In this document: positions 24,572 to 47,166 of the stretch, piece after piece | How the letters are laid out: each line of letters opens with the position of its first letter | How positions within the stretch are numbered: the first letter of the stretch is position 1 | Source of the DNA: Escherichia coli | GTDB taxonomy: Bacteria; Pseudomonadota; Gammaproteobacteria; Enterobacterales; Enterobacteriaceae | Length of the DNA: 64,000 bases | Assembly (NCBI RefSeq): GCF_050920415.1 | Contig: NZ_CP169309.1 | Strand: one strand, 5' to 3' | Notes under the pieces: model-generated | What the model was told of the DNA's origin: nothing | Database searches by the model: none | What the model saw: only the letters and a program-made list of their open reading frames with translations | Translations under genes and position numbers: made by a program

Positions 24572-27537
24572 TATGCAAGCCTCACAATATAGTTAAATGC
24601 GATGTTTTTGACGGTGTTTTCCGCGTTACCAGCAGCGTTAACGGTGATGGTGTGTCCATGTGAACCAATCGCAACGGAGTGCGTATGAGCACCAATACCG
24701 ACAGTATGCGCGTGTGCACCTGCAGATGCTGCTGTGCCGGACAGTGAATGGCTATGATTACCATCTGTACTGGTATTCGCTAACCACCCCGTAGACATAC
24801 CTACTGAGCCTTGTACACCCCAGGTATTTTGACCTGAGCTTGTATAACCATATTGATAAGTATCTTTAAAAACACTGGGGTTAAATCGACGGCCATCTCT
24901 ATGGCTGTGATTACCAGCTGCATTCGTGCTGCCACTTAAACTATGGGTATGCGCACCAGTGTTATTCGTGGATTTAGTGCCGTAATCAAACGACGATGTG
25001 GTTTTCGTCCCCAAATCCGTACTGGATGCGCTGGCGCTGTGGGTATGCGATTTAATGCCGTCCTGTTCCTGAGACAATACGGCCCGACCACTGGCAGGTT
25101 TGCCCTTAATCGTCCAGCCACGCATATCAGGGATCACGCCTGACGGATAAGCGGCTGCAAGTTTCGGGTATGCAGATTTGTCAAAAGTCTGCCCCTGCAT
25201 CAGGGCATAGCCAGACGGAACGGTATCTGATGGCCACGGGATTGGTGCGCCAGGCGGATAAAACTGCTCTGATGGCGTATAGAGTGAATAAACTGTACCG
25301 TCCGTTAACCCTTCCGGCTTATTAGCAGAATATGCTGGTGACGTATGAATCGTCACGCTGGCATTACTGGTATAATCCCATTGAATATTTACACCAGTCG
25401 CATAATTTCCGATTGCAACGTAAATATCGTAAGTATCACCAGATGTATTGACCCAGGCAAAATTTGTAAACCCTGTCGATGTGCGCTGCCATAAAGCACC
25501 AGTAATCCCCTTCGGATTACCATTACCTGCACGTAAAACAAGTTCAGATATACCTGCCTGTTGAGGTGACCCCACGTTAAATCCAGCGCCACCAATCAAC
25601 GTAATTGAAACAACAGAACTCGCCTGTGGCATGGTTACCGTTGCTAATTTGAACCAACCAGCACCACCGCTGAATGACATTGTTGTTGAGTTAAGCGTAC
25701 CAATATCTTTCGGCGTCAGTGTTATATCCGCTGAAAGCGCCTTACCATTCACCTTACGGGCAGAAGGTACCCGACCATTCGCATTGTCATTAGCTGCTTT
25801 CACTGCTTTCGGTGTCGCAGCAAGCGTTTCAGATGTGCTGTTGGTTGCACTACTGAGCTGGACAATTCCTTTTTGTGCTGTCGTAGCGTCCTGTGCGGTG
25901 TATTTCCCGTTAGCCAGGTCATACGCGGCCTTAACGGCTTTTGGCGTTGCCGCCTGTGACTCGGAAGTGCTGTTAGTCGCACTGCTGAGCTGAACTATCC
26001 CTTTCTGTGCTGTCGTTGCATCCTGTGCGGTGTATTTCCCGTTAGCCAGGTCATACGCGGCCTTAACGGCTTTTGGCGTTGCCGCCTGTGACTCGGAAGT
26101 GCTGTTGGTCGCACTGCTGAGCTGTACTATCCCCTTTTTCGTCGTGCTCGCATCCTCAAGCGCCACGGCGGATGCAATATCCTCTGCCCGTTTTGCTGCT
26201 GTCTCGGCGCGCGTTGCCGCGGATTCCGCCGTACTTTTGCTCTGTGCTGCCGCTGCCGCACTGCCAGCAGCCTCTGTCGCCTTCGTGGATGCCGTCGTGG
26301 CGCTGCCCCTCGCTGCTGACGCCTGTCTGGTCGCCTCATCTTTTGAAGCAGACGCAGATGATGCCGATGACGCCGCCGAACTGGCGGACGATGCGGCAGC
26401 CGTTTTTGAGGATTCTGCGCTGGTTTCCGACGCTTTCGCGTTCGTTTCGGATGTCTTCGCTGCGGAAGCAGACCTCGCTGCTGCGCTGGCCTGTTCAGTG
26501 GCTTCGCCAGCCTTCGTTGTGGCTGTTGAAGCGGATGATGCGGCGCTTTCTGCCGATTTTCCGGCGGCGGTGGCACTGACTGCTGCCTCCTCTGCCTTAA
26601 TGGACGCCTCACGGGCCGATGATGCAGCTGCTGTCTCAGAGTCTGCCGCAGCTGAGGCGCTCTGTTCCGCTGCCGTTTCAGAAGACCTGGCATTCGTCTC
26701 GGACGTTTTTGCCGCCTTCACGGAATTTCCTGCCGCCGTTGCCGAGGAGGCTGCACTGCTGGCGCTTGTGGAGGCGTTCGTTTCTGATGATTTTGCCGCC
26801 TCTTTGGAGGCCGCCGCATCTCTGGCTGAAGTGGCGGCTTCTGACGCTTTCGTCGTCGCAGTGGATGCAGAAGTGGCTGCTGATTTTTGTGACGCTGCAG
26901 CATTCGTTTCTGACGTTTTCGCCGCACCGGCACTGGTGGCCGCCGCGCTTTTTGAGGACTCTGCAGCGGCAGCACTTTTTGATGCTTCAGTGGCCTTTGT
27001 TGATGCCGTTCCTGCGCTGGAAGACGCCTCCTGAGCCGAAGTCGCGGCCTGTCCGGCTGACGTGCTGGCTGCACGCGCTGAGCCTGCAGCATCAGTCGCA
27101 TGGGTTGCCGCCTCACGGGCAGATGTGCCGGCATCACTGGCTGACTTCTTCGCGGCTGCCGTGTTCTGTGCCACCGCGGACGCGTTACGCGTCACCTCTT
27201 CCACCATCAGTTCAAAACGGCGCAGAGCCTCCGGACGGGCATCATCCTCCGTCATGGCACCGAGAAAATCATTCAGCGTACCGGGTCGGGAATCTTCATA
27301 CACGGTGATGGTCCCGGCATGTGACGGCGGGAATCCTTCCACCAACAGAATAACGCTGTACTGACCGTACTCAACGTCCATGCTGTAACGCCCGGCTTCA
27401 TCCGGATTTTCTGAGGCCAGCGTGTTCACCACCACCGTGGTGCTGTTACGTTTTGCTTTCAGCTGGATTGTGCAGTTCTGTACCGGTTTTCCTGTGCCGT
27501 CTTTCAGTACACCTGAAATCTTTACTGCCATATTCAC
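24571..27537 (-). CDS. stf: Side tail fibre protein Stf (long form, Ala/Ser/Thr-rich repeats)
   Basis: 988-aa ORF after lom; conserved phage tail-fibre N-terminus ([17 protein letters not shown]...), internal 44-aa tandem repeats, C-terminal receptor-binding region. Confidence 0.9.
25795..26165. repeat. Approx. 132-bp tandem direct repeats (about 3 copies) inside stf
   Basis: Near-identical DNA blocks encode repeated [44 protein letters not shown] units; boundaries approximate. Confidence 0.7.
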
Positions 27538-27595
27538 CCCACAAAAAAGCCCGCCTGAACCGGCGGGCTGTCATAACACTGTGTTACCTGGCTAA

Positions 27596-28195
27596 TCAGA
27601 ACTTATAACCGACACCCACGATGAAACCGTCAGTGCGCCAGTCGCCACTGCCGGAGCCTTCATAAGCAATATCAATGGCCACGGATTCGGTCGGGTTAAA
27701 CTGCACGCCAGCTCCCCACGCCAGAGACGTGTTGCTGTGGCGACCGTCATCACTTCCGGTCAGCACGTCGTGCGTTTTCCCCTTGTTGTCAGTTACGCGG
27801 AGATAATCCCCGGAGAAAGTCGACACACGGCTGTAAGCCACACCCGCCATCGCATACGCGCTGAACCATTCATTCACGCGCACAGACGGCCCCGCCATTA
27901 CGCTGAACCAGCGGTTACGAACGGAATCTTCATGCCAGCGAGTATCGCTGTAATGGGTCAGCTGGCGATTCTTGTCTCCTGCATAGCTGAATGACGTCAC
28001 CAGCCCCAGCGTATCCGTAAACTCATAACGGTATTTCACGTTAATCCCGTTCAGATCATCACTGCCGGGAACGTTGGTCCGGGCATGAAGATACCCCGCG
28101 CTCAGCGTGGACTGATGTTCAGACGCCCATGCAGGCGCACCGGATACGGCCAGACAAATGGCTGCGGACAAAATGGCGGCACAAACTTTACGCAT
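27596..28195 (-). CDS. lom: Lom outer-membrane protein (Ail/Lom family)
   Basis: 199-aa ORF with signal peptide, near-identical to lambda Lom; canonical position after J. Confidence 0.92.
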   Translation of the reverse strand: MRKVCAAILSAAICLAVSGAPAWASEHQSTLSAGYLHARTNVPGSDDLNGINVKYRYEFTDTLGLVTSFSYAGDKNRQLTHYSDTRWHEDSVRNRWFSVMAGPSVRVNEWFSAYAMAGVAYSRVSTFSGDYLRVTDNKGKTHDVLTGSDDGRHSNTSLAWGAGVQFNPTESVAIDIAYEGSGSGDWRTDGFIVGVGYKF

Positions 28196-28265
28196 AATTA
28201 CCTCTCGCTTTTCTGCAATAAAAAAGGCGTCATTCCTGACGCCATTTATTGGGGTTATAAATATT

Positions 28266-31200
28266 TCAACGAATACTGATGCCGGAAGCCGCTTTTTTGG
28301 TCACAATCACCGTACAGTCGGTGATATTGCCTGCCCCCTGATTGCCTTTCTGGAAAATCTTAAACTCCAGAGTGACGCTACCACCACCACTAGGCATATC
28401 AATAACTGCACTGTAACTACCGGGAATGGCCCCTTTAGTTTCTCTGGATGCGATTAATACGCCGTTTTTGCGAACTTCAAAACCATAACCCGTGTATCGC
28501 GTGCCTCCTGGGTTATTTCCGCTCCCCGGATCGTCATACGCTATACCGTTAAAAATAATGGGCGGAATAATAATCTGGCGGTCAAAGTTATGATCATCGC
28601 TGATGGTGACTGTAACCGTACCGTTTGGTGTTTCCGTGTTACCCCACGTACCGACTTTTTTCGGGAAGGCTTTTGATACAGCTTTAACGAAATCCCCTCT
28701 GACCTGGGTCGCCTCCAGCATGCCCTTAATCGTACAGTTTTCATTTACCGTGACATTGTTGAGCGTTCCTGAGTTCGCATTCACACTACCACTGATATCC
28801 GCATTTTTAGCGGTCAGCTTTCCGTCTGATGTCAGGGAAAATACCGGAGGACTGCCACCGCTGGTAATGGTGGGGGCTGTCAGGCGCTTCAGGAACACGT
28901 CGTTCATGAATATCTGGTTGCCCTGCGCCACAAACATCGGCGTTTCATTCCCGTTTGCCGGGTCAATAAACGCGATACGATTGGCGGCAACCAGAAACTG
29001 GCTCAGCTTGCCTTCCTCCGTGTCCTCCATGCTGAGGCCAATACCCGCGACATAATGTTTGCCGTCTTTGGTCTGCTCAATTTTGACGCCCCACATAGCA
29101 TTCCATTTATCGTTAGCGTCCTTCCACTCTTTCGAAAACTCATCCAGTCTGCTGGCGTTATCCTCCGTCAGGTCGACTTTTTCCAGCAGCTCTTTACCGA
29201 GATGGGATTCGGTTATCTTGCCTTTGAAAAAATCCAGGTAACCTTCCGCATCATCGCTCGCCCGACCGACGGCCTCCACGAATGCCGATTTGCCAACGGT
29301 GTTCACACTGCGGATATAAAAGTAATAATCATGGCCCGGTTTGATATTGATACTGGCGGCTATCCAGTACAGCCCCGTGCCAAGGTAGCGGGCTGTGGTT
29401 TCAACCTGCCTGATATCGGTAATCCGCGTTTCCGAGAACCAGAACTCAAACTGTACCGTCGGATCATAAACCGCAAGATGCGGCGTGGCGGTTATCTGAA
29501 AATAGCCCGGCGTCAGCTCAATCCGCGACGGCGCTGCCGGGGCGGCAATCCGGAACGATACCGACGCCGGATCGCCCTGCTGTCCCCGGGCATTTACCGC
29601 TCGGACCGTCAGCGTGTAACGCCCCAGCGTCAGTTGCCTGAAGCGGTAAGTGGTTTCCGTCGTCCGGGCCGTGCTGACCAGCCGCTCACTGCCGTCATCG
29701 GCGGCCACGGTCAGGCGAAGCATAAAGCTCACGCCCTTCACCACCTTCGGCGTATCCCAGCGCGCCAGCACCTGGTATTCCCCGCTGTCTGCGGTGACTT
29801 CGGCGGTCAGGTGCTGCACCGCTGGCGGCGTGACACCATTCACCGTGCCGCTCTGGTCGCCGTCAAAGTGCGCCCCGTTATCCACGATGGCTTCTTTTTC
29901 CGGTACATGCTGCACGGCGGTGATGGCATACGTGCCGTCGTCGTTCTCACGGATACTCACGCAGCGGAACAGGCGCTGGCGCAGCGTCGGCAGCTTCAGC
30001 CCCCACACGCTGTATTCAGCAACGCCGTCAGGAACACGGCTCACTTTCACCTTCACGCCGTCGGTGACGGACTGAACCTCCACGCTGACCGGATTGCCAC
30101 TTCCGTCAACCAGGCTTATCAGCGTGGTACCGGAGGATGGCAGCGTGATTTCACGGTCGAGCGTCAGCGTCCGGGTCTGGCTGTTTACCGCCAGCACGCG
30201 ACCACCGGTGCTGATACCGGCATAGTCATCATCGCAGATTTCAATGACATCGCCCGGTACATGGCGAAGCCCTTCAGCACCCACGCTGAAGTCCACGGTC
30301 TGCGTTTCCAGCAGTTCCGTTTTAATCAGCCACAGCCCGGCGCGGTGCGCCTGCCCCCGGCTGGTACAGCCAAAGGCATCCATCTTCGTGACGTTACGAC
30401 CGTAACGGGCAATGGCCTGCGCATCTTCAACAAGCTCTGTCGCCGTCTCCCAGCCGTTATCCGGGTCAATCCAGTTCACCTCAACGGCATTATGGCGGTC
30501 CTTCAGGGCGCTGAAACTGTAGCGGAACGGCGCGCCATCATCCGGCATCACCACATTACTGCGGTTATAGGTCCACACCTTATCTGATGGTCGGTCCTGC
30601 ACGAACGTCAGCGTCTGCCCGTTCCATACCGGCATACAGCGCATCGCCGAGCAGAAATCACTGAGCACATCCCACGCCTTACGCTGCGTGGTCAGGTAGG
30701 CATTACAGGTGATGCGCGGCTCCGTGCCGCCAAAACCGTCCGGCACTGACTGGTCGCAGTACTGGCCGATGACATACAGCGCCCATTTATCCACATCCGC
30801 CGCACCAAGACGTTTCCCCATGCCGTAGCGCGGATGGGTCAGCATATCCCACAGACACCAGGCCATGTTGTTGCTGTATGCCGGTTTAAACGTTCCGTCC
30901 CAGATACCGCTGTATTGCCGCGTCTGCGGGTTATAGTTCGACGGCACCTGCAGAATGCGCCCGCGCAGATGATAATTACGGCTCACCTGCTGGCTGCCGA
31001 ACTGCTCCGAATCCACCTGCACGCCGACCAGTGCCGTGTTCGGGTAGCCCTGTTTCACATCGATGATTTCGGTGTATGACGACCAGAGCGTTTTGTTCTG
31101 CAGCTGGTCTGTGGTGCTGTCCGGCGTCATCCTGCGCATCCGGATATTAAACGGGCGCGGCGGCAGGCTACCCACCACCACCGAGGCCAGATACTGCGAG

Positions 31201-31679
31201 GTGGTTTTGCCCTTAATGGTGATGTCTTTTTCCGTCACCCAGCCACCGTTACGTTGTATCTGAACCAGCAGACGGACTTCCGACGGATTCCTGTCACCCT
31301 TTGAGGTGGTTTCCACCAGTGCCTGTACACCGAAGGTAAAGCGCAGACGGTCGATGTTTGCAGACGTAATGGTGCGGGTGATCGGCGTGTCATATTTCAC
31401 TTCCGTACCCAGCACCGTCTCGGAGCCGGAGGATTCAAACCCCTCCGGCGGTGTCTGCTCCTGCTCACCGGCACGGAACACCACCGTGACACCGGAGATG
31501 TTGGTATTCCCCTCAGTGTCCAGCACCGGCGTACTGTTCAGCAGCACGCTTTTTAATCCATCCACCGGACCTTCAACCGGCCCTTCGCTGATGGCATCGA
31601 TCACACTCAGCAACTGCGTGGACTTCAGGTTGTCCTTCGCTTCGCGCGGGGTATGCCCCTTACTGCTTCCTTTACCCAT
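28266..31679 (-). CDS. J: Tail tip host-specificity protein J
   Basis: 1137-aa ORF matching lambda J ([26 protein letters not shown]...). Confidence 0.95.
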
Positions 31680-31739
31680 TCCTCACGCTCCATAAATGAC
31701 AAAACCGCCCGCAGGCGGTTTCACATAAAACATTTTGCA

Positions 31740-32411
31740 TCAGCGACCAATCACCACAACCTGACCACCGTCCCCTTCGTCTGCCGTGCTGATCTCCTGA
31801 GAAACCACGCGTGACCCCACGCGCATTTCCCCGTACAGAACAGGCAGAACATTGCCCTGGGCAACCATGTTATCCAGTGAGGAGAAATAGGTGTTCTGCT
31901 TACCGTTATCCGTTGTCTGTGTACGGGGAGTTCTGGCTTTCGGTGCCAGCATCTGCGCCACACCACCGAGCACCATACTGGCACCGAGAGAAAACAGGAT
32001 GCCGGTCATACCACCGGCCCCAATGGCTGCCCCCCATGCTGCAAGGGTGGCTCCGGCGGTAAAGAATGATCCGGCAATGGCGGCAGCCCCCAGGACAATC
32101 TGGAATACGCCACCTGACTTGGCCCCGGCGACTCTGGGAACAATATGAATCACAGCGCCATCAGGCAGAGTCTCATGTAACTGCGCCGTTAACCCGGACG
32201 TGCTGACGTCCCGCCCGGCAATCCGTACCTGATACCAGCCGTCGCTCAGTTTCTGACGAAACGCCGGGAGCTGTGTGGCCAGTGCCCGGATGGCTTCAGC
32301 CCCCGTTTTCACACGAAGGTCGATGCGGCGACCAAATCGTTGTAAATCCCCGTAAAGGCAGATGCGCGCCATGCCCGGTGACGCCAGAGGGAGTGTGTGC
32401 GTCGCTGCCAT
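31740..32411 (-). CDS. I: Tail assembly protein I
   Basis: 223-aa ORF, lambda gpI length, overlaps K as in lambda. Confidence 0.9.
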   Translation of the reverse strand: MAATHTLPLASPGMARICLYGDLQRFGRRIDLRVKTGAEAIRALATQLPAFRQKLSDGWYQVRIAGRDVSTSGLTAQLHETLPDGAVIHIVPRVAGAKSGGVFQIVLGAAAIAGSFFTAGATLAAWGAAIGAGGMTGILFSLGASMVLGGVAQMLAPKARTPRTQTTDNGKQNTYFSSLDNMVAQGNVLPVLYGEMRVGSRVVSQEISTADEGDGGQVVVIGR

Positions 32412-33052
32412 TTGTCGGTGTACCTCTCTCGTTTGCTCAGTTGTTCAGGAATATGGTGCAGCAGCTCGCCGTCGCCGCAGTAAATTGCGGCGTGATTCGG
32501 CACCGATGAACCAAAACAGCACAGCAGCACATCGCCCGGCTGTGCCGCTGACAACGGCACCTGATACAGCCCCGTCGCCTCCAGATTATCCAGATAGAGA
32601 TTCTGGCCGTTACGCCACCAGTCATCCTCACGATGAAAGTCCGGCATCTCAATCCCCGCCAGATGATAAGCATCCCGGAACAGTGTGTAACAGTCCGTCA
32701 CACCGTGCTCAAAGCGCCGCCCGGTGAGATGCGGCACACAGCGGAACTTATGAATCGTCCCCCGGCAGACCAGCCACCACGGCAAATCACTCTGCACCTG
32801 CAGCCGCCGGTCGGCCTCACTCAGCCAGGGCAGACCACCGGGGTGGCTGTGGACCAGCGCCACAATCTCACCCTGCATTTCTGCCTGCAGCCAGTCTTCC
32901 GGCGACATACGGAAATACGCCTCCGGCTCACCGGAGATATTCACGCAGGGGAAATATCTTTCCCCCTCCGGCGTGCTTACCACGAAGCCGCACGACTCCG
33001 CTGGCGCACATCGCCGGGCGTGCGCCAGAATCGCTGATTCTGTCTGTGTCAT
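32309..33052 (-). CDS. K: Tail assembly protein K (NlpC/P60-like)
   Basis: ORF directly after L in lambda order; Cys/His peptidase-like motifs. Confidence 0.88.
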   Translation of the reverse strand: MTQTESAILAHARRCAPAESCGFVVSTPEGERYFPCVNISGEPEAYFRMSPEDWLQAEMQGEIVALVHSHPGGLPWLSEADRRLQVQSDLPWWLVCRGTIHKFRCVPHLTGRRFEHGVTDCYTLFRDAYHLAGIEMPDFHREDDWWRNGQNLYLDNLEATGLYQVPLSAAQPGDVLLCCFGSSVPNHAAIYCGDGELLHHIPEQLSKRERYTDKWQRRTHSLWRHRAWRASAFTGIYNDLVAASTFV

Positions 33053-33057
33053 GGGAT

Positions 33058-33756
33058 TTACTGCGAAAGTTTGTTAATGGAAAGGAAGCCGCCAAAGTTG
33101 CCGACGTTATTGCGGAACTTACAACCGCTCAGGCATTTGCTGCATTTATCCTTCGTGATATCGGACGTTGGCTGGTCATATTCATCCGCGACAGCCGGAC
33201 CGCTATAACCGCACTCGTCACCGCGATAGGTCCAGGTGCAGGTGTTGGCCAGCATGATACGTCCCGGAAAAACAGCGCCATCCGTTTCCGTCGGCGTGGA
33301 CAGTACAAAGGAGGCACTCACCGCGCTCAGTTCGCTGCACTGCTCAATGCGCCAGCGGCTGATCACCTCCTGCTCCGGATCGGCATAACTGTTTCCGTTG
33401 ACGAAGTTCACCGCATCCAGAAAACGGGCGTAAACCTTACGCCGGACCACCGTTCCGCCGACCAGACTCTGCATATCTTCCGCCATCCCGGTGACCATAC
33501 CGTACAGGTTAGAAACCGTCAGCGTGGGGCGCGTACTGGTGCCTTTGCCATTCAGTTCAAAACCGCTCCCCTGAATGGGATACGGCTGATACTGTCGCCC
33601 CTGCCAGGTGACCGGCTCACCTTTTTCGTTCTGCTCATTACAGAAAAAATAACGTTCTCCACCGACCTCTGTCAGGTCGATTTCCCAGAGCACCACGCTG
33701 GCCGACTGCTCCGCACGGGTGCATTCATTCAGTGTTTCCTGCCGGATATCCTGCAT
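33058..33756 (-). CDS. L: Minor tail protein L
   Basis: 232-aa ORF, lambda gpL length and order. Confidence 0.9.
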   Translation of the reverse strand: MQDIRQETLNECTRAEQSASVVLWEIDLTEVGGERYFFCNEQNEKGEPVTWQGRQYQPYPIQGSGFELNGKGTSTRPTLTVSNLYGMVTGMAEDMQSLVGGTVVRRKVYARFLDAVNFVNGNSYADPEQEVISRWRIEQCSELSAVSASFVLSTPTETDGAVFPGRIMLANTCTWTYRGDECGYSGPAVADEYDQPTSDITKDKCSKCLSGCKFRNNVGNFGGFLSINKLSQ

Positions 33757-34085
33757 CAGTTCACCACCTGTTCAAACTCTGCGCTGAACTCAACACGCAG
33801 CATACTGACCCGCGACGACCATTTTGCGCAGGTCACCTTTATCTGCCGCCACTCATAAGGCGGCGTCCACAGAAAGGATTTCCAGCCCCCGTGCTCTTCC
33901 AGAAACGACTCCAGTACCGTGGCCTCCTCACGGGGGACAGAAAGCGTCACGCTGTACGTTTTCAGGTTGGCATTCAGCCCGGCAGGCGCTCGCTGAGAAT
34001 AGCCATCACCAAAGCGCACCTTTCTTACAGAAGGGACCGAAGCCACATCCATACCGGGTTTCACTTTCCAGCGGAAGGTCTTCAT
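33756..34085 (-). CDS. M: Minor tail protein M
   Basis: 109-aa ORF, lambda gpM length and order. Confidence 0.9.
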   Translation of the reverse strand: MKTFRWKVKPGMDVASVPSVRKVRFGDGYSQRAPAGLNANLKTYSVTLSVPREEATVLESFLEEHGGWKSFLWTPPYEWRQIKVTCAKWSSRVSMLRVEFSAEFEQVVN

Positions 34086-36643
34086 CGTCCACCTCCGGAG
34101 AACAGGCCACCATCACGCATCTGTGTCTGAATTTCATCACGGGCACCCTTGCGGGCCATGTCATACACCGCCTTCAGAGCAGCCGGACCTATCTGCCCGT
34201 TCGTGCCGTCGTTGTTAATCACCACATGGTTATTCTGCTCAAACGTCCCGGACGCCTGCGACCGGCTGTCTGCCATGCTGCCCGGTGTACCGACATAACC
34301 GCCGGTGGCATAGCCGCGCATCAGCCGGTAAAGATTCCCCACGCCAATCCGGCTGGTTGCCTCCTTCGTGAAGACAAACTCACCACGGTGAACAATCCCC
34401 GCTGGCTCATATTTGCCGCCGGTTCCCGTAAATCCTCCGGTTGCAAAATGGAATTTCGCCGCAGCGGCCTGAATGGCTGTACCGCCTGACGCGGATGCGC
34501 CGCCACCAACAGCCCCGCCAATGGCGCTGCCGATACTCCCGACAATCCCCACCATTGCCTGCTTAAGCAGAATTTCTGTCATCATGGACAGCACGGAACG
34601 GGTGAAGCTGCGCCAGTTCTGCTCACTGCCGGTCAGCATCGCTGCCATATTCTGTGCAATACCATCAAAGGTCTGCGTGGCTGCACTTTTTACCTGCGAC
34701 ATACTGTCCGTGGCGCTCTCTTCCCACTCACTCCAGCCGGACTTCAGGCCTGCCATCCAGCTCCCGCGAAGCTGGTCTTCAGCCGCCCAGGTCTTTTTCT
34801 GCTCTGACATGACGTTATTCAGCGCCAGCGGATTATCGCCATACTGTTCCTTCAGGCGCTGTTCCGTGGCTTCCCGTTCTGCCGGCCGGTCAGTCAGCCC
34901 CCGGCTTTTCGCATCAATGGCGGCCCGTTTTGCCCGTTGCTGCTGTGCGAATTTATCCGCCTGCTGCGCCAGCGCGTTCAGGCGCTCCTGATACGTAACC
35001 TTGTCGCCAAGTGCAGCCAGCTGGCGTTTGTACTCCAGCGTCTCATCTTTATGCGCCAGCAGGGATTTCTCCTGTGCGGACAGCTGGCGACGTTGTGCCG
35101 CCTCCTCCAGTACCGCGAACTGACTTTCTGCCTTCCACAAATCCCGGCGCTGCTGGCTGATTTTCTCATTTGCTCCGGCATGCTTCTCCAGCGTCCGGAG
35201 TTCTGCCTGAAGCGTCAGCAGGGCAGCATGAGCACTGTCTTCCTGACGATCGCCCGCAGACACCTTCACGCCGGACTGTTTCGGCTTTTTCAGCGTCGCT
35301 TCATAATCCTTTTTCGCCGCCGCCATCAGCGTGTTGTAATCCGCCTGCAGGATTTTCCCGTCTTTCAGTGCCTTGTTCAGTTCTTCCTGACGGGCGGTAT
35401 ATTTCTCCAGCGGCGTCTGCAGCCGTTCGTAAGCCTTCTGCGCCTCTTCGGTATATTTCAGCCGTGACGCTTCGGTATCGCTCTGCTGCTGCGCATTTTT
35501 GTCCTGTTGAGTCTGCTGCTCAGCCTTCTTTCGGGCGGCTTCAAGCGCAAGACGGGCCTTTTCACGATCATCCCAGTAACGCGCCCGCGCTTCATCGTTA
35601 ACAAAATAATCATCCTTGCGCAGATTCCAGATGTCGTCTGCTTTCTTAAACGCAGCCTCTGCCTTAATCAGCATCTCCTGCGCGGTATCAGGACGACCAA
35701 TATCCAGCACCGCATCCCACATGGATTTGAAGGCCCGCGCAGTCCTGTCTGCCCAGGTCTCCAGCGTGCCCATGTTCTCTTTCAGGCGGCGGGTCTGGTC
35801 ATCAAACCCTTTCGTTGCGGCCTCGTTCGCCGCCTGCAATGCCCCGGCTTCATCGCCGGAACGCTGCAACTGAGCAACATACGCAATCTGCTCCGCCGTC
35901 ACGTTATGGAACTGGCGTGCCATCGCCGTCAGCCCCGACGTCGGGTCTGTGGTCAGCTTCCCGAAGGCTTCAGCGACCTTGTCCACCTCCACGCCGGATG
36001 CAGAGGAGAAACGCGCCACACTCTGGCTGATGGACGCAATCTGAGCCTCACCGCTTACCCCCGCCTTAACCAGTGCGCTGAGTGACTCGCTGGTCTGGTT
36101 AAACGTCAGCCCTGCCGCCTGCCCGGCTCTGGACAGGACCAGCATGCGATCTGCCGTCAGACCCGACTGATTGCCGGAAAGGACCAGCGTTTTGTTGAAA
36201 TCGGACAGGGTTGAGTTGCCCTGATACCAGGCATACGCCAGCGCACCGGTCGCCACCGCCAGCGAGGTGGCCCCCACCATCGGCAGGGTGATCGCACCGG
36301 CAAGCCCCCTGAACATGGGGATCATCCCGCCGAAGGAGTCCTTCACCTGCCCCCCCTGTTGCAGCAGGATCAGCCACGGACTTTGCCCGCCTGCAAGCTG
36401 CGTGGCCACGTCGGTGAACTGTGCAGGCAGCATACGCATGGCGGCTTTATACTGCCCGACGGAAATCCCCGCTTTCTGTGCAGCCAGCGCCTGTCGGCTC
36501 AGCGACTGTTCAACGACTGCCGCTGTTTTTTTCGCATCACTTTCCGTACCGGAAAAATGACGCCTGACTCTGGCCATCTGCTCGTCAAATCTGGCCGCAT
36601 CCAGACTTAAATCAACGACCAGATCGCCTACCGGTTCAGCCAT
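34082..36643 (-). CDS. H: Tail tape measure protein H
   Basis: 853-aa ORF (lambda gpH length), coiled-coil rich, Gly-rich C-terminal region. Confidence 0.93.
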   Translation of the reverse strand: MAEPVGDLVVDLSLDAARFDEQMARVRRHFSGTESDAKKTAAVVEQSLSRQALAAQKAGISVGQYKAAMRMLPAQFTDVATQLAGGQSPWLILLQQGGQVKDSFGGMIPMFRGLAGAITLPMVGATSLAVATGALAYAWYQGNSTLSDFNKTLVLSGNQSGLTADRMLVLSRAGQAAGLTFNQTSESLSALVKAGVSGEAQIASISQSVARFSSASGVEVDKVAEAFGKLTTDPTSGLTAMARQFHNVTAEQIAYVAQLQRSGDEAGALQAANEAATKGFDDQTRRLKENMGTLETWADRTARAFKSMWDAVLDIGRPDTAQEMLIKAEAAFKKADDIWNLRKDDYFVNDEARARYWDDREKARLALEAARKKAEQQTQQDKNAQQQSDTEASRLKYTEEAQKAYERLQTPLEKYTARQEELNKALKDGKILQADYNTLMAAAKKDYEATLKKPKQSGVKVSAGDRQEDSAHAALLTLQAELRTLEKHAGANEKISQQRRDLWKAESQFAVLEEAAQRRQLSAQEKSLLAHKDETLEYKRQLAALGDKVTYQERLNALAQQADKFAQQQRAKRAAIDAKSRGLTDRPAEREATEQRLKEQYGDNPLALNNVMSEQKKTWAAEDQLRGSWMAGLKSGWSEWEESATDSMSQVKSAATQTFDGIAQNMAAMLTGSEQNWRSFTRSVLSMMTEILLKQAMVGIVGSIGSAIGGAVGGGASASGGTAIQAAAAKFHFATGGFTGTGGKYEPAGIVHRGEFVFTKEATSRIGVGNLYRLMRGYATGGYVGTPGSMADSRSQASGTFEQNNHVVINNDGTNGQIGPAALKAVYDMARKGARDEIQTQMRDGGLFSGGGR

Positions 36644-36685
36644 ACCGGACTCCTCCTGCGATCCCTTCTGATACTGTCATCAGCA

Positions 36686-37066
36686 TTACGTCATCTCCGT
36701 CATGTCCGCCACATCCGGGGAAGCGGGGATAACTTCATTCCCGTCCGGGCCAAAGCGGACACCTCCGGCAAGCCCTGCCGCTTTCTGCATCAGCACATCA
36801 TCTTCAGGCTCTTCGTCAGCCTCGCGCCGGTTCAGCAGACTGAAATCCAGCGGATGCATATCCGGATCGCTGAAAAACAGGCTGAGCACGGTGTACGTCA
36901 GCCCGGAAAAGTGCATATCCAGCAGAACATCATGAAAATAATGGGTACTGTAAAAGCGGTGCCAGTCGGCATACTCCGTGGATGACATCCCGGCAAGCAT
37001 GGCACGCCAGTCAGGTCGCCCCATCTCACGCGCCAGTTTCAGGGCAAAACTCAGCTCACCGTCGAA
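36686..37066 (-). CDS. T: Tail assembly chaperone T frame (normally made only as a G-T fusion by -1 frameshift)
   Basis: Open frame matching lambda T (FDGELSFALKLAREMGRPDWRAMLAG...), no independent start; frame relationship to G is abnormal here (see findings). Confidence 0.7.
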   Translation of the reverse strand, partial: FDGELSFALKLAREMGRPDWRAMLAGMSSTEYADWHRFYSTHYFHDVLLDMHFSGLTYTVLSLFFSDPDMHPLDFSLLNRREADEEPEDDVLMQKAAGLAGGVRFGPDGNEVIPASPDVADMTEMT

Positions 37067-37472
37067 CACTTTCCCGCAGAAACAGGCTCTGCGGGCCCGG
37101 CGTCCTCTGTCTGTTCAGGGCATTATTCACCACAAACTCATACATACCAGACAGCCGGTACACCACGTTTTCAGCATGAGAAATTGCCTCCGTGGGCCAG
37201 GTGGTAAGCACTTCCTGCTCAATCTGTTTAACGGCTTCATTCATGGACGGCAGCTTTGTCTTCTGCGGATGGTTATGCCACAGGGACATCGCCACCAGAA
37301 ACGCGCCGGTTCTGATGGCGTCTTCCACAGTAAACTTCCGGTTGCTGTCTGACTCCGCCTGTTCTGCCTGCCGTTTCATCAGGGCGAGATGCTCAATGCG
37401 CTGCAGGGCTGACAGTTCAGAAAGCGTGACGGTCACACCGTTATGTTCAAATGATTCGGTTTTCAGGAACAT
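37056..37472 (-). CDS. G: Tail assembly chaperone G (C-terminus altered by a 1-nt deletion)
   Basis: 138-aa ORF matching lambda G up to ...EFVVNNA, then a divergent 21-aa tail ending in a different frame; slippery GGGAAAG is present but out of phase. Confidence 0.85.
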   Translation of the reverse strand: MFLKTESFEHNGVTVTLSELSALQRIEHLALMKRQAEQAESDSNRKFTVEDAIRTGAFLVAMSLWHNHPQKTKLPSMNEAVKQIEQEVLTTWPTEAISHAENVVYRLSGMYEFVVNNALNRQRTPGPQSLFLRESVRR

Positions 37473-37487
37473 CGCTGACTCTCCGGA

Positions 37488-37739
37488 TTAACTGTCGGTG
37501 ACAGTGATTTCTGCAACCGCAGCAAGTTCACCATTACCGGATAAAACCGGAATGTTGACCTTACCTGCAGCAACGCCTTTCACGGTGATGGTCATACCAC
37601 TGACCGACACGGTGGCTTTTGTTTTATCCGCTGACACCGCACGGAAGCTCTTGTCAGTTGCGCCCTCCGGCTGGAATGCCACGGTCAGCGTGGTGCTCTG
37701 CCCTTTCACCACCGAGGAGCTGGCAGGCGTCACGGTCAT
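37488..37739 (-). pseudogene. V: Major tail protein V, C-terminal Ig-like domain fragment (out of frame with the N-terminal part)
   Basis: 83-aa ORF matching lambda V C-terminus ([24 protein letters not shown]...). Confidence 0.75.
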
Positions 37740-37753
37740 ACCGGTTGCCGCTG

Positions 37754-38227
37754 TTACCGTGCTGCGATTTCTGCCATTGACGGACGGCCCACATTGGTGA
37801 CCTTCACCGTACGGGTGATCACTTCCTTCGCCGTCACCGCCTTACCGATACTGCTGACCCAGCCACGGAACACATCGACCGTGCCGTTCGGGAAGCGGAT
37901 TTTATAGGCACGGGTATCACCTTCATTAAACCACGCCAGCAGCGCCTGCTGCCCCTGCTCTCCGGGCATCCACGCCAGCGTGAAGCTGGTATCTCCGGCG
38001 GATTTCTGCCCCTGCCCGGTCGCGGTCCAGTCCGCATCTTCATCATCGAGATAACTGTCGTCATAGGACTCAGCGGTCAGTTCGCCGGGCGTCAGGTCTT
38101 TAACTTTAGCCAGACGCGACCAGTCAACGTCTGAAAGCGGGTTCGCATAAGGGTCGCCGCTCCCGTTATAAACCCACAGGGTGGTCCCGGCACCTTTCAC
38201 CGGTATTGCTGGATTTGGTACAGGCAT
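37754..38227 (-). CDS. V: Major tail protein V, N-terminal tube domain (truncated by frameshift)
   Basis: Matches lambda V from MPVPNP... to ...GRPSMAE, then leaves frame and stops after 4 codons. Confidence 0.85.
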
Positions 38228-38234
38228 ATCGTCC

Positions 38235-38630
38235 TCACATTTCATAGGTAATGACATAAGTCAGATCGGCAGAACTCCACAGGCCCGCATCATCGTCGCG
38301 CCGGTAGTCATAGCCACTGGCCACCATACTGGTGATCAAATCTGACAGTGCCGGGATATCGCTCATCACCGGATAAATCCGGGACTCCATCCACGCATCC
38401 AGCTCTGAATCCGGCACCTGAGCAGGCAGGAAAACTTCGATATGCAGTTCCGCCTGCCAGGTATCGCTGTCCAGCTCTTCGCCCGTGTATTCAGCGCCGG
38501 TGAGATAAACGGCAACTGCCGGAAAATCCGCCTCATCAAAAACAGCGGGGCGACCATCAAAAAACGTCGCCCCGGTGTCATGCTTCTCCAGTGCATCCAG
38601 TACGGCTGCACGGAGTTCAGTATGTTTCAT
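38235..38630 (-). CDS. U: Tail terminator protein U
   Basis: 131-aa ORF matching lambda gpU ([26 protein letters not shown]...). Confidence 0.95.
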
Positions 38631-39216: not shown

Positions 39217-39570
39217 TCAGCGGCGACGGTTAACGGCAGGCGGTACGCCCCGCCCAAGCCAGAGATGACAGCTTCCGCCATCATCCGGCGAAATCCGGTC
39301 TATCCAGAAGTTTTCCTCACCGATGGTCAGCGTGTCGCCGCGCCGCAGCTGCCGCACATCATCAGTCCGGACAAACATGGACGGGCTGGAGCCTTCAACG
39401 CGCACGCCCGGTCCGGCATAGCTGATATTTTCAGGGTCATCAAAAACACCACGTATCACAGCACCGGACTGCTCACCGGATGTCATGGTGGCTGACGTTC
39501 CCATGTACCCGCGTATCGTTTCATCGGCGCGGGCAATGGCAGCATCGAACAGGTTATCGAAATCAGCCAC
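39217..39570 (-). CDS. FII: Head-tail connector protein FII
   Basis: 117-aa ORF matching lambda gpFII (MADFDNLFDAAIARADETIRGYMG...). Confidence 0.95.
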   Translation of the reverse strand: MADFDNLFDAAIARADETIRGYMGTSATMTSGEQSGAVIRGVFDDPENISYAGPGVRVEGSSPSMFVRTDDVRQLRRGDTLTIGEENFWIDRISPDDGGSCHLWLGRGVPPAVNRRR

Positions 39571-39581
39571 AGCGCCTCCCG

Positions 39582-39977
39582 TTATTGCATTCTGGCCAGG
39601 CCGCGCTCTGTCATTTCGGCTGCCACACCGGCAGAGACACGGAACGCCGTTCCCGGCAGCACAAATGCCACAGGTTCATCCCGCGTGGCGTGAAGTGCAT
39701 CAGTATGCAGCGTCACCAGTGCCACAACCGTGACCAGATCAGCCGTATCAGTCACGGTATCCGGCTGCGCTGATACCACCTCATTTTCATGTCCGGTCAG
39801 CGCATTTTCCGGGCTGACAGATGTGTCCTGACCGGCAGCGTCATCCGTGTCATCAAGCTCCTCTTCCAGCTCTGCCACACGGAGCGCCAGTTCTTCTTTC
39901 GTCCCCGTCAGGCTGACATCACGGTTCAGTTGTTCACCCAGCGAGCGGAGACGGGCAATCAGTTCATCTTTCGTCAT
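39582..39977 (-). CDS. FI: DNA packaging protein FI
   Basis: Start chosen at MTKDELIARLRSLGEQLNRD as in lambda gpFI; ORF track gives a longer frame from 40016. Confidence 0.9.
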   Translation of the reverse strand: MTKDELIARLRSLGEQLNRDVSLTGTKEELALRVAELEEELDDTDDAAGQDTSVSPENALTGHENEVVSAQPDTVTDTADLVTVVALVTLHTDALHATRDEPVAFVLPGTAFRVSAGVAAEMTERGLARMQ

Positions 39978-40018
39978 GGACTCCTCCACAGAGAGAAAAT
40001 GGCCCCGAAGGGCCATGA

Positions 40019-41044
40019 TTACGCCAGTTGTACGGACACGAACTCATCAGGGTCAGCCAGCAGCATCAGCGGTGCTGACTGAATCATGGTGAACTCACGC
40101 GCCGGATCGCCGGTGGTCACCCAGTTTTTCGGGTAACGGGCAGAGGCGTTAATGCCTTCGCGCTGTGCGTCCGCATCCTGAATGCAGCCATAGGTGCGCA
40201 GACCGCGTGCCTGAGTGTTACCCAGCACCATCGTGTTGTCCGGCAGGAAGTTCTTTTTGACGCCGTTTTCCACGTACTGTCCGGAATACACGACGATGGC
40301 CACATCGCCATACATCCCCTTATAGGACACCGCTTTGCCCAGGTCTTTCACCGCTGTCTCCAGCTCGGAATTAGAGCCACGACGGGTATCCAGCTTCTCC
40401 CTGACGGCTTTGAAGGAACGGAACAGCGCCCAGCCTTTCGGATCGAACACGATGATATTCACCACACCGCTGGCGTTCAGCGCGTAGGCTTCGATATCGT
40501 CGGTCGGGTCATACGTGGACTTGTCACGCTTGCTCCACTCCGTGCCGCCGGACTGCGTGATGTTATTCTCCTCACTGCGGCCCATATCCACCTCAACCGG
40601 ATCGAAGGCTTCACCGGTCATGGTGTATTTGCCCTTAAGCACGGCAGAAACTGCCTGCATCTCTTCGACCTGAGCAATGGCCAGCTCTTCGTCACGCATG
40701 TTCTGCATGATGATGCGACGGCGGCGGTAAGCCGGGTCCGCCAGATTCTGCGGATCTTCATCCGGCAGGCGACGCAGGGTCATCTGCGGATTCACTTCAT
40801 GCTTCGGCTTGACATATCCCGGCGTAAATTCAGAGGTGGAGCCGCCACGGGAACGGATAACCTCACCGGAAACAATCGGCGAAACGTACAGCGCCATGTT
40901 TACCAGTCCCGGAATTTGTGAGAGATAGACTTTCTCCGTGGTGAAGGGATAGCTCTCACGGAAAAAGAGACGCAGAAACAGCGGATCAAACTTAAATTTC
41001 TGCTCATTTGCCGCCAGCAGTTGGGCGGTTGTGTACATCGACAT
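40019..41044 (-). CDS. E: Major capsid protein E
   Basis: 341-aa ORF matching lambda gpE (MSMYTTAQLLAANEQKFKFDPLFLRLFF...). Confidence 0.97.
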   Translation of the reverse strand: MSMYTTAQLLAANEQKFKFDPLFLRLFFRESYPFTTEKVYLSQIPGLVNMALYVSPIVSGEVIRSRGGSTSEFTPGYVKPKHEVNPQMTLRRLPDEDPQNLADPAYRRRRIIMQNMRDEELAIAQVEEMQAVSAVLKGKYTMTGEAFDPVEVDMGRSEENNITQSGGTEWSKRDKSTYDPTDDIEAYALNASGVVNIIVFDPKGWALFRSFKAVREKLDTRRGSNSELETAVKDLGKAVSYKGMYGDVAIVVYSGQYVENGVKKNFLPDNTMVLGNTQARGLRTYGCIQDADAQREGINASARYPKNWVTTGDPAREFTMIQSAPLMLLADPDEFVSVQLA

Positions 41045-41100
41045 AAAAAAATCCCGTAAAAAAAAGCCGCACAGGCGGCCTTTAGTGATGAAGGGTAAAG

Positions 41101-41433
41101 TTAAACGATGCTGATTGCCGTTCCGGCAAACGCGGTCCGTTTTTTCGTCTCGTCGCTGGCAGCCTCCGGCCAGAGCACATCCTCATAACGGAACGTGCCG
41201 GACTTGTAGAACGTCAGCGTGGTGCTGGTCTGGTCAGCAGCAACCGCAAGAATGCCAACGGCAGCACCGTCGGTGGTGCCATCCCACGCAACCAGCTTAC
41301 GGCTGGAGGTGTCCAGCATCAGCGGGGTCATTGCAGGCGCTTTCGCACTCAATCCGCCGGGCGCGGTTGCGGTATGAGCCGGGTCACTGTTGCCCAGCGG
41401 CTGGTAATGGGTAAAGGTTTCTTTGCTCGTCAT
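41101..41433 (-). CDS. D: Capsid decoration protein D
   Basis: Matches lambda gpD from [12 protein letters not shown]...; 110 aa. Confidence 0.95.
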
Positions 41434-41442
41434 AAACATCCC

Positions 41443-42742
41443 TTACACTGGTGTGTTCAGCAAATCGTTAACGGCATCAGATGCCGGGTTACCTGCAGCC
41501 AGCGGTGCCGGTGCCCCCTGCATCAGACGATCCAGCGCAGTGTCACTGCGCGCCTGTGCACTCTGTGGTGCTGCGGCCAGAATGCGGCGGGCCGTTTCCA
41601 CGGTCATACCGGGGGTTTCTGCCAGCACGCGTGCCTGTTCTTCGCGTCCGTGAGCCTCCTCACAGTTGAGGATCCCCATAATGCGACTGTTTTCTGCCGC
41701 AACCGCTGCGGTGATCTGCGCGTTCACGTCCGGCTGCGCCGCGCTGGCGTTTTCGCCCTCCGTCGCTGGCACCACGTCAGTAACGTCAGCCTGCGAAGCA
41801 GTGGCTGAAACAGTTGTTGATTGAGTCTCTTTGGTCATTCGCCCTCCTGAGAGACGGGATTTACGTGCATCCAGTGCATCACGCATGACGGTGATCGCAT
41901 CGGTGCTGTTAACAAGTTCATCAGCCAGTCCGGCATCAATGGCCTCCTGACCGCTGTACACTGCAGCCTCGGTATCCAGCACAGCCTGCACGGACAGGCC
42001 GGTATATGCCGACACCTTCTGCGCAAACATCTGGCGGGTTGCGTCCATCCGGGACTGCAGTGTCTCCCGGACGTCATCCGGAAGATGGCTGTAGGGGTTG
42101 CCATCCACCTTATGGCTGCCGCTGTAAATCAGCGTGATTTCCACACCCTGTTTCTCCAGCGCAGCACCGTAATTACTGTGAGCCATCATGACGCCGATGG
42201 AGCCTGTCCGGGCGGTCTGCGTGACCAGACGCCGGGAGGCGGCACTGGCAAGCAGCTGACCTGCACTGCAGTTCATGTCGTTGGCCAGCGCCCATACCGG
42301 TTTTATGTCACGCACACGGGCGATGATGTCAGCGCAGTCAAATGCCCCCGCCACCATCCCGCCGGGCGTGTCCATATCGAGCAGAATGCCGTCCACCATC
42401 GGATCGCTGGCAGCCTGTTGCAGACGGGCGATAATGCCGTTGTAACCGGTCATCCCCGAATACGGCTGCAGCGCCCGCGTCCGGCTGACCAGCGTGCCGG
42501 AAACCGGCAGCACGGCGATGCCGTTCATGACCTGATAACTGCGGGCCTGTCGTGGTCCGTCATCATCACCGGATAACGCCAGCGTCGCGGGTGTCTCCGG
42601 GGCAGTCAGGCTGTCACCGGACACCGCATCTGTCAGGCGGCTGATCCCAAGCTGGCCTGCAAGCGCACAAAAGAAAACCCGCGCATAGGCGGGTTCAAGC
42701 ATCAGCGGCTCATTAAAGGCCATACTGGCAATATGCGGGAGA

Positions 42743-42762
<20 letters not shown>
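41443..42762 (-). CDS. C: Capsid assembly protease C (with nested scaffold Nu3 frame)
   Basis: Matches lambda gpC; start taken at the GTG corresponding to lambda MTAELRNLPHIASMAFNEP (439 aa), overlapping the end of B. Confidence 0.92.
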
Positions 42763-46443
<3,681 letters not shown>

Positions 46444-46469
<26 letters not shown>

Positions 46470-46989
46470 TCAGCAACCCCGGTATCAGTTCATCCAGCGC
46501 GGCTGCTTTGTTCATGGCTTTGATGATATCCCGTTTCAGGAAATCAACATGTCGGTTTTCCAGTTCCGGAAAACGCCGCTGCACCGACAGGGGGATCCCG
46601 TCGAGAATACTGGCAATTTCACCTGCGATCCGCGACAGCACGAAAGTACAGAATGCGGTTTCCACCACTTCAGCGGAGTCTCTGGCATTTTTCAGCTCCT
46701 GTGCGTCGGCCTGCGCACGCGTAAGTCGATGGCGTTCGTACTCAATAGTCCCTGGCTGGAGATCTGTCTCGCTGGCCTGCCGCAGTTCTTCAACTTCCCG
46801 GCGCAGCTTTTCGTTCTCAATTTCAGCATCCCTTTCGGCATACCATTTTATGACGGCGGCAGAATCATAAAGCACCTCATTACCCTTGCCACCGCCTCGC
46901 AGAACGGGCATTCCCTGCTCCTGCCAGTTCTGAATGGTACGGATACTCGCACCGAAAATATCAGCCAGCTGCTTTTTGTTGACTTCCAT
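46444..46989 (-). CDS. Nu1: Terminase small subunit Nu1
   Basis: 181-aa ORF essentially identical to lambda Nu1 (MEVNKKQLADIFGASIRTIQNWQEQGMPVLRGGGKGNEVLYD...). Confidence 0.97.
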
Positions 46990-47166
46990 TGTTCATTCCA
47001 CGGACAAAAACAGAGAAAGGAAACGACAGAGGCCAAAAAGCTCGCTTTCAGCACCTGTCGTTTCCTTTCTTTTCAGAGGGTATTTTAAATAAAAACATTA
47101 AGTTATGACGAAGAAGAACGGAAACGCCTTAAACCGGAAAATTTTCATAAATAGCGAAACCCCGCG

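What the first reader, a model, noticed from the sequence alone, without database searches (positions are those of the whole stretch)
37040..37135. G/T tail chaperone frameshift cassette is out of phase: 1-nt deletion upstream of the slippery GGGAAAG
G matches lambda G to ...EFVVNNA and then reads LNRQRTPGPQSLFLRESVRR* where lambda has PEQTEDAGPAEPVSAGKCSTVS*, consistent with loss of one C in a C-run (GCCCCT to GCCCT). The slippery heptamer is therefore read as CGG-GAA-AGT, and the T frame is now +1 rather than -1 relative to G. The programmed -1 frameshift that makes the essential G-T fusion should not work as in lambda, so the prophage may be tail-assembly defective, unless this is a sequencing error.
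Basis: partly seen in the sequence, partly recalled or inferred. Interest (0 to 1): 0.55.

Follow-up and report, generated by a model that had tools for sequence, protein, structure and literature searches.

The report
Probable assembly errors in prophage tail genes
The lambda-like prophage in this window does lack one base in tail gene G, which puts the frameshift signal out of phase, but it is one of three single-base losses confined to a repeated 3-kb block and is most likely an uncorrected sequencing error, not biology.

Summary
On the minus strand, G (37472..37056) has CCC where lambda and all relatives have CCCC. All three lie inside a 3,164-base block (35172-38335). Apart from them, that block is identical, with 0 substitutions, to a second lambdoid prophage in a near-clonal sister strain. 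Illumina draft contigs of the same prophage stop at that block's edge, as they would at a repeat. The rest of the window that independent assemblies cover (about 59 of 64 kb) has no indels against them. None of the three alleles occurs in 5,426 complete E. coli genomes, IMG/VR, JGI metagenomes or GTDB representatives. None of the mutant proteins occurs among about 15 billion public proteins. The best explanation (about 0.8) is residual long-read consensus errors in a repeat that short reads could not polish. If the deletions are real (about 0.17), this is an ordinary, very recently inactivated prophage hit in V, G and T. Interest is low.

The parts
37056..37472 (-). Tail assembly chaperone gene G as written: 138 aa, with the last 21 residues out of frame relative to lambda G
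   Evidence: ORF list. TIGR01674 phage_lambda_G at 2.3e-57, matching only residues 1-121. Alignment to lambda.
37118..37120 (-). C-run with one C missing (CCC here, CCCC in lambda and all relatives). This is the deletion the finding describes.
   Evidence: No exact match to this allele in 5,426 E. coli genomes, IMG/VR, JGI metagenomes or GTDB representatives. The wild-type allele gives 10 IMG/VR hits.
37069..37075 (-). Slippery heptamer GGGAAAG, intact but out of phase: read CGG-GAA-AGT instead of G_GGA_AAG
   Evidence: heptamer index mod 3 is 1 in the window and 2 after restoring the C.
36686..37069 (-). T reading frame, +1 of the G frame as written, ending early at TAA 36688..36686 because of its own deletion
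   Evidence: TIGR01715 phage_lam_T at 1.3e-50.
36695..36696 (-). Site of the 1-nt deletion in T (GAGGAT to GAGAT), which removes the last ~20 residues of T
   Evidence: No exact match in 5,426 genomes or 4,182 homologous places.
37754..38227 (-). Tail tube gene V, N-terminal fragment (157 aa, ends ...SMAEIAAR*)
   Evidence: Relatives have an intact 246-aa V.
37768..37769 (-). Site of the 1-nt deletion in V (GAAGATC to GAAATC), a lone G within a GATC site
   Evidence: No exact match in 5,426 genomes or 2,210 homologous places.
37488..37739 (-). Orphaned ORF for the C-terminal Ig-like domain of V (83 aa)
   Evidence: The intact V of relatives carries PF02368 Big_2 at its C-terminus.
35172..38335 (.). 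3,164-base block (5' part of H, T, G, V, 3' end of U). It is identical to the ydfJ-site prophage of sister strain MFDS1022581 except for the three deletions, and is inferred to be an intragenomic repeat.
   Evidence: 0 substitutions and 3 one-base gaps. Draft contig L005 ends at 35298, which is 35171+127.
34082..36643 (-). Tape measure gene H, intact at 853 aa

Best explanation
The missing C in G, and the two other missing bases in V and T, are most likely errors of the deposited consensus and not mutations in the cell. I infer that the window comes from a finished genome with at least two lambdoid prophages sharing a 3.16-kb identical stretch (H'-T-G-V-U'). In a long-read assembly such a stretch is spanned and placed correctly. 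Its single-base consensus errors, mostly deletions, cannot then be repaired by short reads, because those reads map equally well to both copies. The result is a clean chromosome with a small cluster of one-base deletions deep inside the repeat, each of which breaks a reading frame. On this view the true prophage has normal V (246 aa), G (140 aa) and T (144 aa) and makes G and G-T by the ordinary lambda -1 slip at G_GGA_AAG. Shown: the three deletions, their confinement to the block, the absence of indels elsewhere, and the uniqueness of the alleles. Inferred: that the window's own genome holds the second copy, and that it was assembled from long reads.
For: (1) Three 1-nt deletions and 0 substitutions separate window 35172-38335 from the ydfJ-site prophage of E. 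coli MFDS1022581. That strain's chromosome matches the window's host flank (1-17949) with 1 substitution and 0 indels, so it is practically the same clone. (2) The block behaves as a repeat in this lineage. Illumina draft GCA_035787075.1 carries the same argU prophage (99.98% over 17 kb, no gaps). Its contig stops at window 35298, exactly 127 bases beyond the first site (35171) that distinguishes the two prophage copies. The next contig resumes only at 39476. (3) Wherever an independent assembly covers the window there are no indels: 1-17949, 18266-32638 at 100.000% (L006), 18266-35298 (L005), 39476-54344 (L010), and 52000-64000 at 100.0%. Ten of ten other window proteins are exact matches to public proteins. 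Under uniform scatter, the chance that all three indels fall in one 3,164-base block of 64 kb is about (3164/64000)^3, or 1e-4. (4) All three deletions lie at least 567 bases from the block's edges, beyond the reach of uniquely anchored short read pairs. (5) The alleles are found nowhere else: no exact match for any of the three in 5,426 complete E. coli genomes, none for the G allele in IMG/VR, JGI metagenomes or GTDB representatives, and none of five mutant products among about 15 billion proteins. (6) This artefact class is documented. Residual long-read errors are mostly indels, cause frameshifts, and persist in repeats after short-read polishing (PMC8812927). (7) The sister assembly shows the same kind of lesion in multi-copy phage and IS genes: its portal gene lacks a single T, and its IS21 genes are annotated as frameshifted.
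Against: No reads are available and the source record could not be identified, so neither the sequencing platform nor the presence of the second prophage in the window's own genome is shown. Only one of the three deletions (CCCC to CCC) is a classic homopolymer error; GG to G is marginal, and the V deletion removes a lone G. Three errors in 3.2 kb (about Q30) is high for a modern polished consensus, though normal for an unpolished one. About 1 kb of the same block (35.7-36.7 kb) has no error.
Confidence: 0.8

Rival explanations
1. The three deletions are real and recent. The argU-site prophage would then be a freshly inactivated, tail-defective prophage. V would be truncated before its Ig-like domain. 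G would have a scrambled C-terminus and could not be fused to T by the -1 slip. T would lack its last ~20 residues. The prophage could form tails only if the second resident prophage supplied V, G and G-T in trans.
For: The bases are absent from the sequence as given. Frameshifted prophage genes are common in E. coli annotations. A second prophage with identical wild-type V/G/T in the sister strain would relax selection on this copy. Lambda needs both gpG and gpGT, and background frameshifting is below 5e-5 per codon (PMC3296357), so the G lesion alone would be disabling.
Against: Three independent frame-breaking deletions with no substitution in 3.16 kb are unlikely, given that the remaining ~46 kb of prophage and 18 kb of host flank differ from sister assemblies by 0-3 substitutions and no indels. 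In E. coli, spontaneous indels are roughly ten times rarer than substitutions (own knowledge). There is no other sign of decay: H, J, tail fibre, capsid, portal and terminase are all intact. One hit would inactivate the tail, so selection does not explain three. No related genome shares any of the alleles.
Confidence: 0.17
2. The out-of-phase arrangement is a functional variant: G-T is made by a +1 or -2 programmed frameshift instead of -1.
For: The T frame is open from 37114 onward, so any +1 shift between 37114 and 37056 would give a G-T fusion. One site, UUU-C at CTG-TTT-CTG, would let tRNA-Phe re-pair in the +1 frame (inference from the sequence).
Against: At GGGAAAG in the new phase, neither a +1 nor a -2 shift lets the P- and A-site tRNAs re-pair (inference from codon-anticodon rules). 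The UUU-C site is followed by CUG, a common codon with no pause signal. The allele is unique among thousands of homologues, all of which keep the -1 phase. T and V are broken as well, which no recoding at G explains.
Confidence: 0.01

Closest known systems
Bacteriophage lambda G / G-T tail assembly chaperones with -1 programmed frameshift at G_GGA_AAG (Levin, Hendrix and Casjens 1993; Xu, Hendrix and Duda 2004, own knowledge; PMC3296357)
   Same: Same genes in the same order (V-G-T-H), 99.3% nucleotide identity to lambda. The heptamer GGGAAAG is intact. G and T match the TIGR01674 and TIGR01715 equivalogs.
   Different: As written, one base is missing 43-45 nt upstream of the heptamer, so the heptamer is not in the X_XXY_YYZ phase and T is +1 of G. 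Restoring the base gives exactly the lambda arrangement.
Residual long-read consensus indels in genomic repeats after short-read polishing (Wick and Holt 2022, Polypolish, PMC8812927)
   Same: One-base deletions that cause frameshifts, confined to a stretch that is multi-copy in the lineage, within an otherwise error-free sequence.
   Different: Two of the three are not clear homopolymer-length errors. The platform and the reads are unknown.
Defective lambdoid prophages of E. coli carrying frameshifted morphogenesis genes, such as the O157:H7 Sakai prophage pool (Asadulghani et al. 2009, own knowledge)
   Same: A lambdoid prophage with disrupted tail genes in a genome with several related prophages that could complement or recombine.
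   Different: Known defective prophages usually show mixed lesions (IS insertions, deletions, substitutions) that are shared within a lineage. Here there are only three private 1-nt deletions in an otherwise pristine prophage.

Membership tests
Lambda-type G/G-T tail assembly chaperone cassette | A G homologue located between the major tail tube gene and the tape measure gene | tested here: met
   TIGR01674 at 2.3e-57. Order U-V-G-T-H, colinear with lambda.
Lambda-type G/G-T tail assembly chaperone cassette | A T ORF with no independent start requirement, overlapping the 3' end of G in the -1 frame | tested here: not met
   T (TIGR01715) overlaps G but lies +1 of the as-written G frame. It lies -1 after restoring one C.
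Lambda-type G/G-T tail assembly chaperone cassette | A slippery heptamer X_XXY_YYZ in phase with the G frame, just upstream of the G stop | tested here: not met
   GGGAAAG is present at 37075..37069 but read CGG-GAA-AGT. It is in phase in every relative examined.
Lambda-type G/G-T tail assembly chaperone cassette | Two products, G and G-T, at roughly 30:1, both required for tail assembly | not testable with these tools
   Needs protein detection or phage assays. The requirement is stated in PMC3296357.
Unpolished long-read consensus errors in a repeat | The lesions are single-base indels, mostly deletions | tested here: met
   Three 1-nt deletions and no substitutions.
Unpolished long-read consensus errors in a repeat | The lesions are confined to sequence that is multi-copy in the same genome, deeper than the short-read insert size | tested here: inconclusive
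   Met by proxy. The block is identical to the second prophage of a near-clonal sister strain. Draft contigs of the same prophage break at its edge. The deletions lie at least 567 nt inside. The window's own genome was not available.
Unpolished long-read consensus errors in a repeat | Unique sequence of the same assembly is free of indels | tested here: met
   No indels against independent assemblies over 1-17949, 18266-35298, 39476-54344 and 52000-64000.
Unpolished long-read consensus errors in a repeat | Raw reads or independent re-sequencing contradict the consensus | not testable with these tools
   No read data. The source record was not identified.
Decaying (cryptic) prophage pseudogenes | The lesions are inherited and shared by related genomes | tested here: not met
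   None of the three alleles is present in 5,426 complete genomes, and none of the mutant proteins is present among about 15 billion.
Decaying (cryptic) prophage pseudogenes | Accompanying decay such as substitutions, IS insertions or deletions in other phage genes | tested here: not met
   All other structural genes are full length and mostly exact matches to known proteins. The prophage is colinear with intact relatives.

The most novel reading that the evidence does not exclude
The three -1 deletions are real and record a single event: an ectopic gene conversion between two resident lambdoid prophages, covering the 35172-38335 tract, copied by an error-prone polymerase. Pol IV/DinB-type synthesis is biased towards -1 frameshifts at G:C (own knowledge). 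That would explain why the tract is otherwise identical to the other prophage, why all three lesions are losses of G:C pairs, and why they cluster. It would be a natural footprint of mutagenic break repair between prophages.
Probability: 0.04. Interest if true: 0.55.

Novelty: not a real feature. Interest (0 to 1): 0.1.

Why it matters
If the deletions are artefacts, the only consequence is practical. V, G and T of this prophage would be wrongly annotated as pseudogenes and the prophage wrongly scored as defective. It is a clear example of consensus errors hiding in prophage-prophage repeats. If the deletions are real, this is one more inactivated lambdoid prophage. Its only added interest would be that three tail genes were hit almost simultaneously, which would call for a clustered-mutation mechanism. 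Neither reading changes what is known about G/G-T frameshifting.

Tried and rejected
1. Identifying the source record. The best 24-kb prophage match in complete E. coli genomes was only 99.2%. The window's H protein is not on record. The deletion allele is absent from GTDB representatives. The source was not found, so platform and reads remain unknown.
2. Recovering the V-G-T contig from the Illumina drafts that share the window's exact J and portal alleles. Their contigs end before the block, so the direct comparison was impossible. The break positions became evidence for a repeat instead.
3. General assembly sloppiness. Rejected: no indels occur outside the block wherever it can be checked, and 10 of 10 other proteins are exact matches.
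4. An inherited pseudogene allele. Rejected: no exact match for any of the three alleles.
5. Alternative recoding (+1 or -2). Rejected on codon-anticodon grounds and because V and T are broken too.
6. Methylation-motif explanation. Only the V deletion lies in a Dam GATC site. The G and T sites are not Dam or Dcm motifs (read), so this does not explain all three.

Full report
WHAT IS THERE

The finding lies in the late operon of a lambdoid prophage encoded on the minus strand. Gene order and sequence are colinear with lambda: E, FI, FII, Z, U, V, G, T, H. The G-T stretch is 99.3% identical to lambda.

G runs from 37472 to 37056 and encodes 138 aa. It matches the NCBIfam equivalog for lambda G (TIGR01674, 2.3e-57), but only over residues 1-121. 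The overlapping T frame (37069..36686) matches TIGR01715.

CHECK OF THE OBSERVATION

- The window reads AATGCCCTGAAC where lambda reads AATGCCCCTGAAC, so one C of a four-C run is missing (window 37120..37118).
- Downstream, G reads LNRQRTPGPQSLFLRESVRR* instead of PEQTEDAGPAEPVSAGKCSTVS*.
- The heptamer GGGAAAG is intact at 37075..37069 but now begins at codon position 2 and is read CGG-GAA-AGT. The T frame is +1 of G, not -1.
- Restoring one C reproduces the 140-aa lambda-type G with the heptamer in the G_GGA_AAG phase.

The base-by-base alignment to lambda shows three 1-nt deletions within 1.07 kb, not one.

- In V, GAAGATC has become GAAATC (between 37769 and 37768). This splits the 246-aa tail tube protein into a 157-aa N-terminal ORF ending ...SMAEIAAR* and an orphaned 83-aa ORF for the C-terminal Ig-like domain.
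- In T, GAGGAT has become GAGAT (36696/36695), so T ends ...DMTEMT* about 20 residues early.
- A 3-nt difference in FI (39749-39751) is in frame. Illumina drafts share it, so it is an ordinary polymorphism.

CONTEXT

The first 17,949 bases of the window (pheP end, cusCFBA, cusRS, nfrBA, ybcH, envY) match E. coli MFDS1022581 (NZ_CP169399.1) with one substitution and no indel. In that strain envY is followed directly by tRNA-Arg (argU) and fimZ. The window's prophage is therefore an insertion at the argU/DLP12 site, starting at about 17950.

The prophage runs past the end of the window. In a genome that matches 52000-64000 at 100.0%, it ends with intD, tRNA-Arg and fimZ about 3.7 kb further on.

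ARE THE DELETIONS SEEN ANYWHERE ELSE?

No.

- All of the top 40 hits from 8,189 homologous places in 5,426 complete E. coli genomes span 1304 bases against the window's 1301.
- 61-nt queries centred on each deletion find 1,361, 2,210 and 4,182 homologous places. None is an exact match, and every best hit is 61 bases aligned to 62.
- The G deletion allele has 0 matches in IMG/VR, JGI metagenomes and GTDB representative genomes. The wild-type allele has 10 matches in IMG/VR.
- None of the five possible mutant products is among about 15 billion public proteins.
- Ten of ten other proteins from the window, host and phage, are exact matches to public proteins.

IS THE SEQUENCE GENERALLY ERROR-PRONE?

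No. Wherever an independent assembly overlaps the window there are no indels:

- 1-17949 against MFDS1022581.
- 18266-32638 at 100.000% against draft GCA_015518365.1.
- 26343-32350 at 100% against GCA_021228495.1.
- 18266-35298 (3 substitutions) and 39476-54344 (29 substitutions) against draft GCA_035787075.1.
- 52000-64000 at 100.0% against NZ_CP172871.1.

Over 34.8 kb colinear with the closest complete prophage, the only frame-breaking coding indels are these three.

WHAT IS SPECIAL ABOUT THE PLACE WHERE THEY SIT?

MFDS1022581, the near-clonal sister strain, carries another lambdoid prophage at ydfJ. Window 35172-38335 (3,164 bases: the 5' part of H, T, G, V and the end of U) is identical to that prophage except for the three missing bases, with 0 substitutions. 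Outside those limits the two prophages differ every few tens to hundreds of bases.

The draft assembly that carries the same argU prophage ends its contig at window 35298. That is exactly 127 bases past 35171, the first site that distinguishes the two copies. This is what a k=127 assembly graph does at the edge of a repeat. The next contig resumes at 39476.

So in this lineage the block is present at least twice. All three deletions lie in its core, at least 567 bases from either edge.

INTERPRETATION

The pattern is a clean sequence with private one-base deletions, no substitutions, confined to the interior of a multi-copy block. This is the known signature of long-read consensus errors that short reads could not correct because they map to both copies (PMC8812927).

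Under uniform scatter, three indels falling in one 3,164-base block of a 64-kb window has a probability of about 1e-4.

The sister assembly shows the same type of lesion in multi-copy elements. Its portal gene lacks a single T, and its IS21 genes are annotated as frameshifted.

I put this explanation at about 0.8. Two steps are inferred, not shown: that the window's own genome contains the second copy, and that it was built from long reads.

THE RIVAL

If the deletions are real, the as-written sequence cannot make G-T by the lambda mechanism. Lambda needs both gpG and gpGT, made at GGGAAAG with about 4% -1 slippage, and background frameshifting is below 5e-5 per codon (PMC3296357). V and T would be damaged as well, so the prophage could form tails only with help from the other prophage.

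Against this reading:

- It requires three independent frame-breaking deletions and no substitution in 3.16 kb, in a prophage and host otherwise 0-3 substitutions away from sister isolates.
- There is no other sign of decay.
- No related genome shares the alleles.

I give it about 0.17. Within that, a small share (about 0.04) goes to the most interesting version: a single error-prone gene-conversion event between the two prophages.

A functional +1 or -2 recoding variant is essentially excluded.

COMPARISON WITH KNOWN SYSTEMS

The cassette is lambda G/G-T by homology and synteny. As written, it fails the two defining features that concern phase: the heptamer in phase with G, and T in the -1 frame. 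It meets both once a single base is restored.

Nothing here is new biology. The practical lesson is that V, G and T of this prophage should not be called pseudogenes without read-level confirmation.

VERDICT

- Observation: confirmed but incomplete.
- Interpretation: partly supported.
- Novelty: not a real feature.
- Interest: 0.1.

Noticed in passing
window 37754-38227 and 37488-37739 (deletion between 37769 and 37768): Tail tube gene V is split by its own 1-nt deletion (GAAGATC to GAAATC, a lone G inside a Dam GATC site). The result is a 157-aa N-terminal ORF and an 83-aa ORF for the C-terminal Ig-like domain.
   Followed up: yes
window 36686-36700 (deletion at 36696/36695): T carries its own 1-nt deletion (GAGGAT to GAGAT) and stops about 20 codons early, 43 nt before the H start codon at 36643 instead of overlapping it.
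   Followed up: yes
window 17905-17949: The prophage is inserted in tRNA-Arg (argU). Only the 3' 45 nt of the tRNA gene is present at this junction, and ARAGORN finds no intact tRNA in the window. A near-clonal strain (MFDS1022581) has the empty site envY-tRNA-Arg-fimZ. So ompT, an alpha/beta hydrolase, a methyltransferase and a Pin-like recombinase (18372-23898) all lie on the inserted side of the junction.
   Followed up: partly
window 39749-39751: An in-frame 3-nt difference in FI relative to lambda (131 vs 132 aa). Illumina drafts and metagenome contigs share it, so it is a natural allele and a useful contrast to the three private 1-nt deletions.
   Followed up: yes
window 56520-58022 (+): A 500-aa DUF4041-domain ORF sits on the opposite strand to its neighbours, between the replication genes (ren/P/O) and an antirepressor-like gene. 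It looks like a moron or possible defence cargo. It is identical in several E. coli prophages.
   Followed up: no
window 50999-52096 (+): A prophage-borne porin gene (365 aa) lies between the Q antiterminator and the lysis cassette. The intergenic region upstream (about 50468-50857) holds several multi-base indels relative to one relative, but none relative to an Illumina draft of the same prophage.
   Followed up: partly
L030 (NZ_CP169399.1) 13556-15156 and 7065-9029: In the sister strain's ydfJ prophage, the portal gene lacks a single T (GCCGGG-GACT). The IS21 istA and istB genes are annotated as frameshifted. These are the same kind of isolated lesion in multi-copy elements, which suggests assemblies of this lineage carry uncorrected repeat errors.
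   Followed up: partly
L009 and L012 (contigs sharing the window's exact portal allele), about 13700-21600 and 6400-14300: In two other sources, a ~7-kb integrase/AlpA/D5-primase element with its own capsid-like and decoration-like genes is inserted between D and E of an otherwise similar prophage. It looks like a phage-satellite-type insertion in the head gene cluster. It is not present in the window.
   Followed up: no
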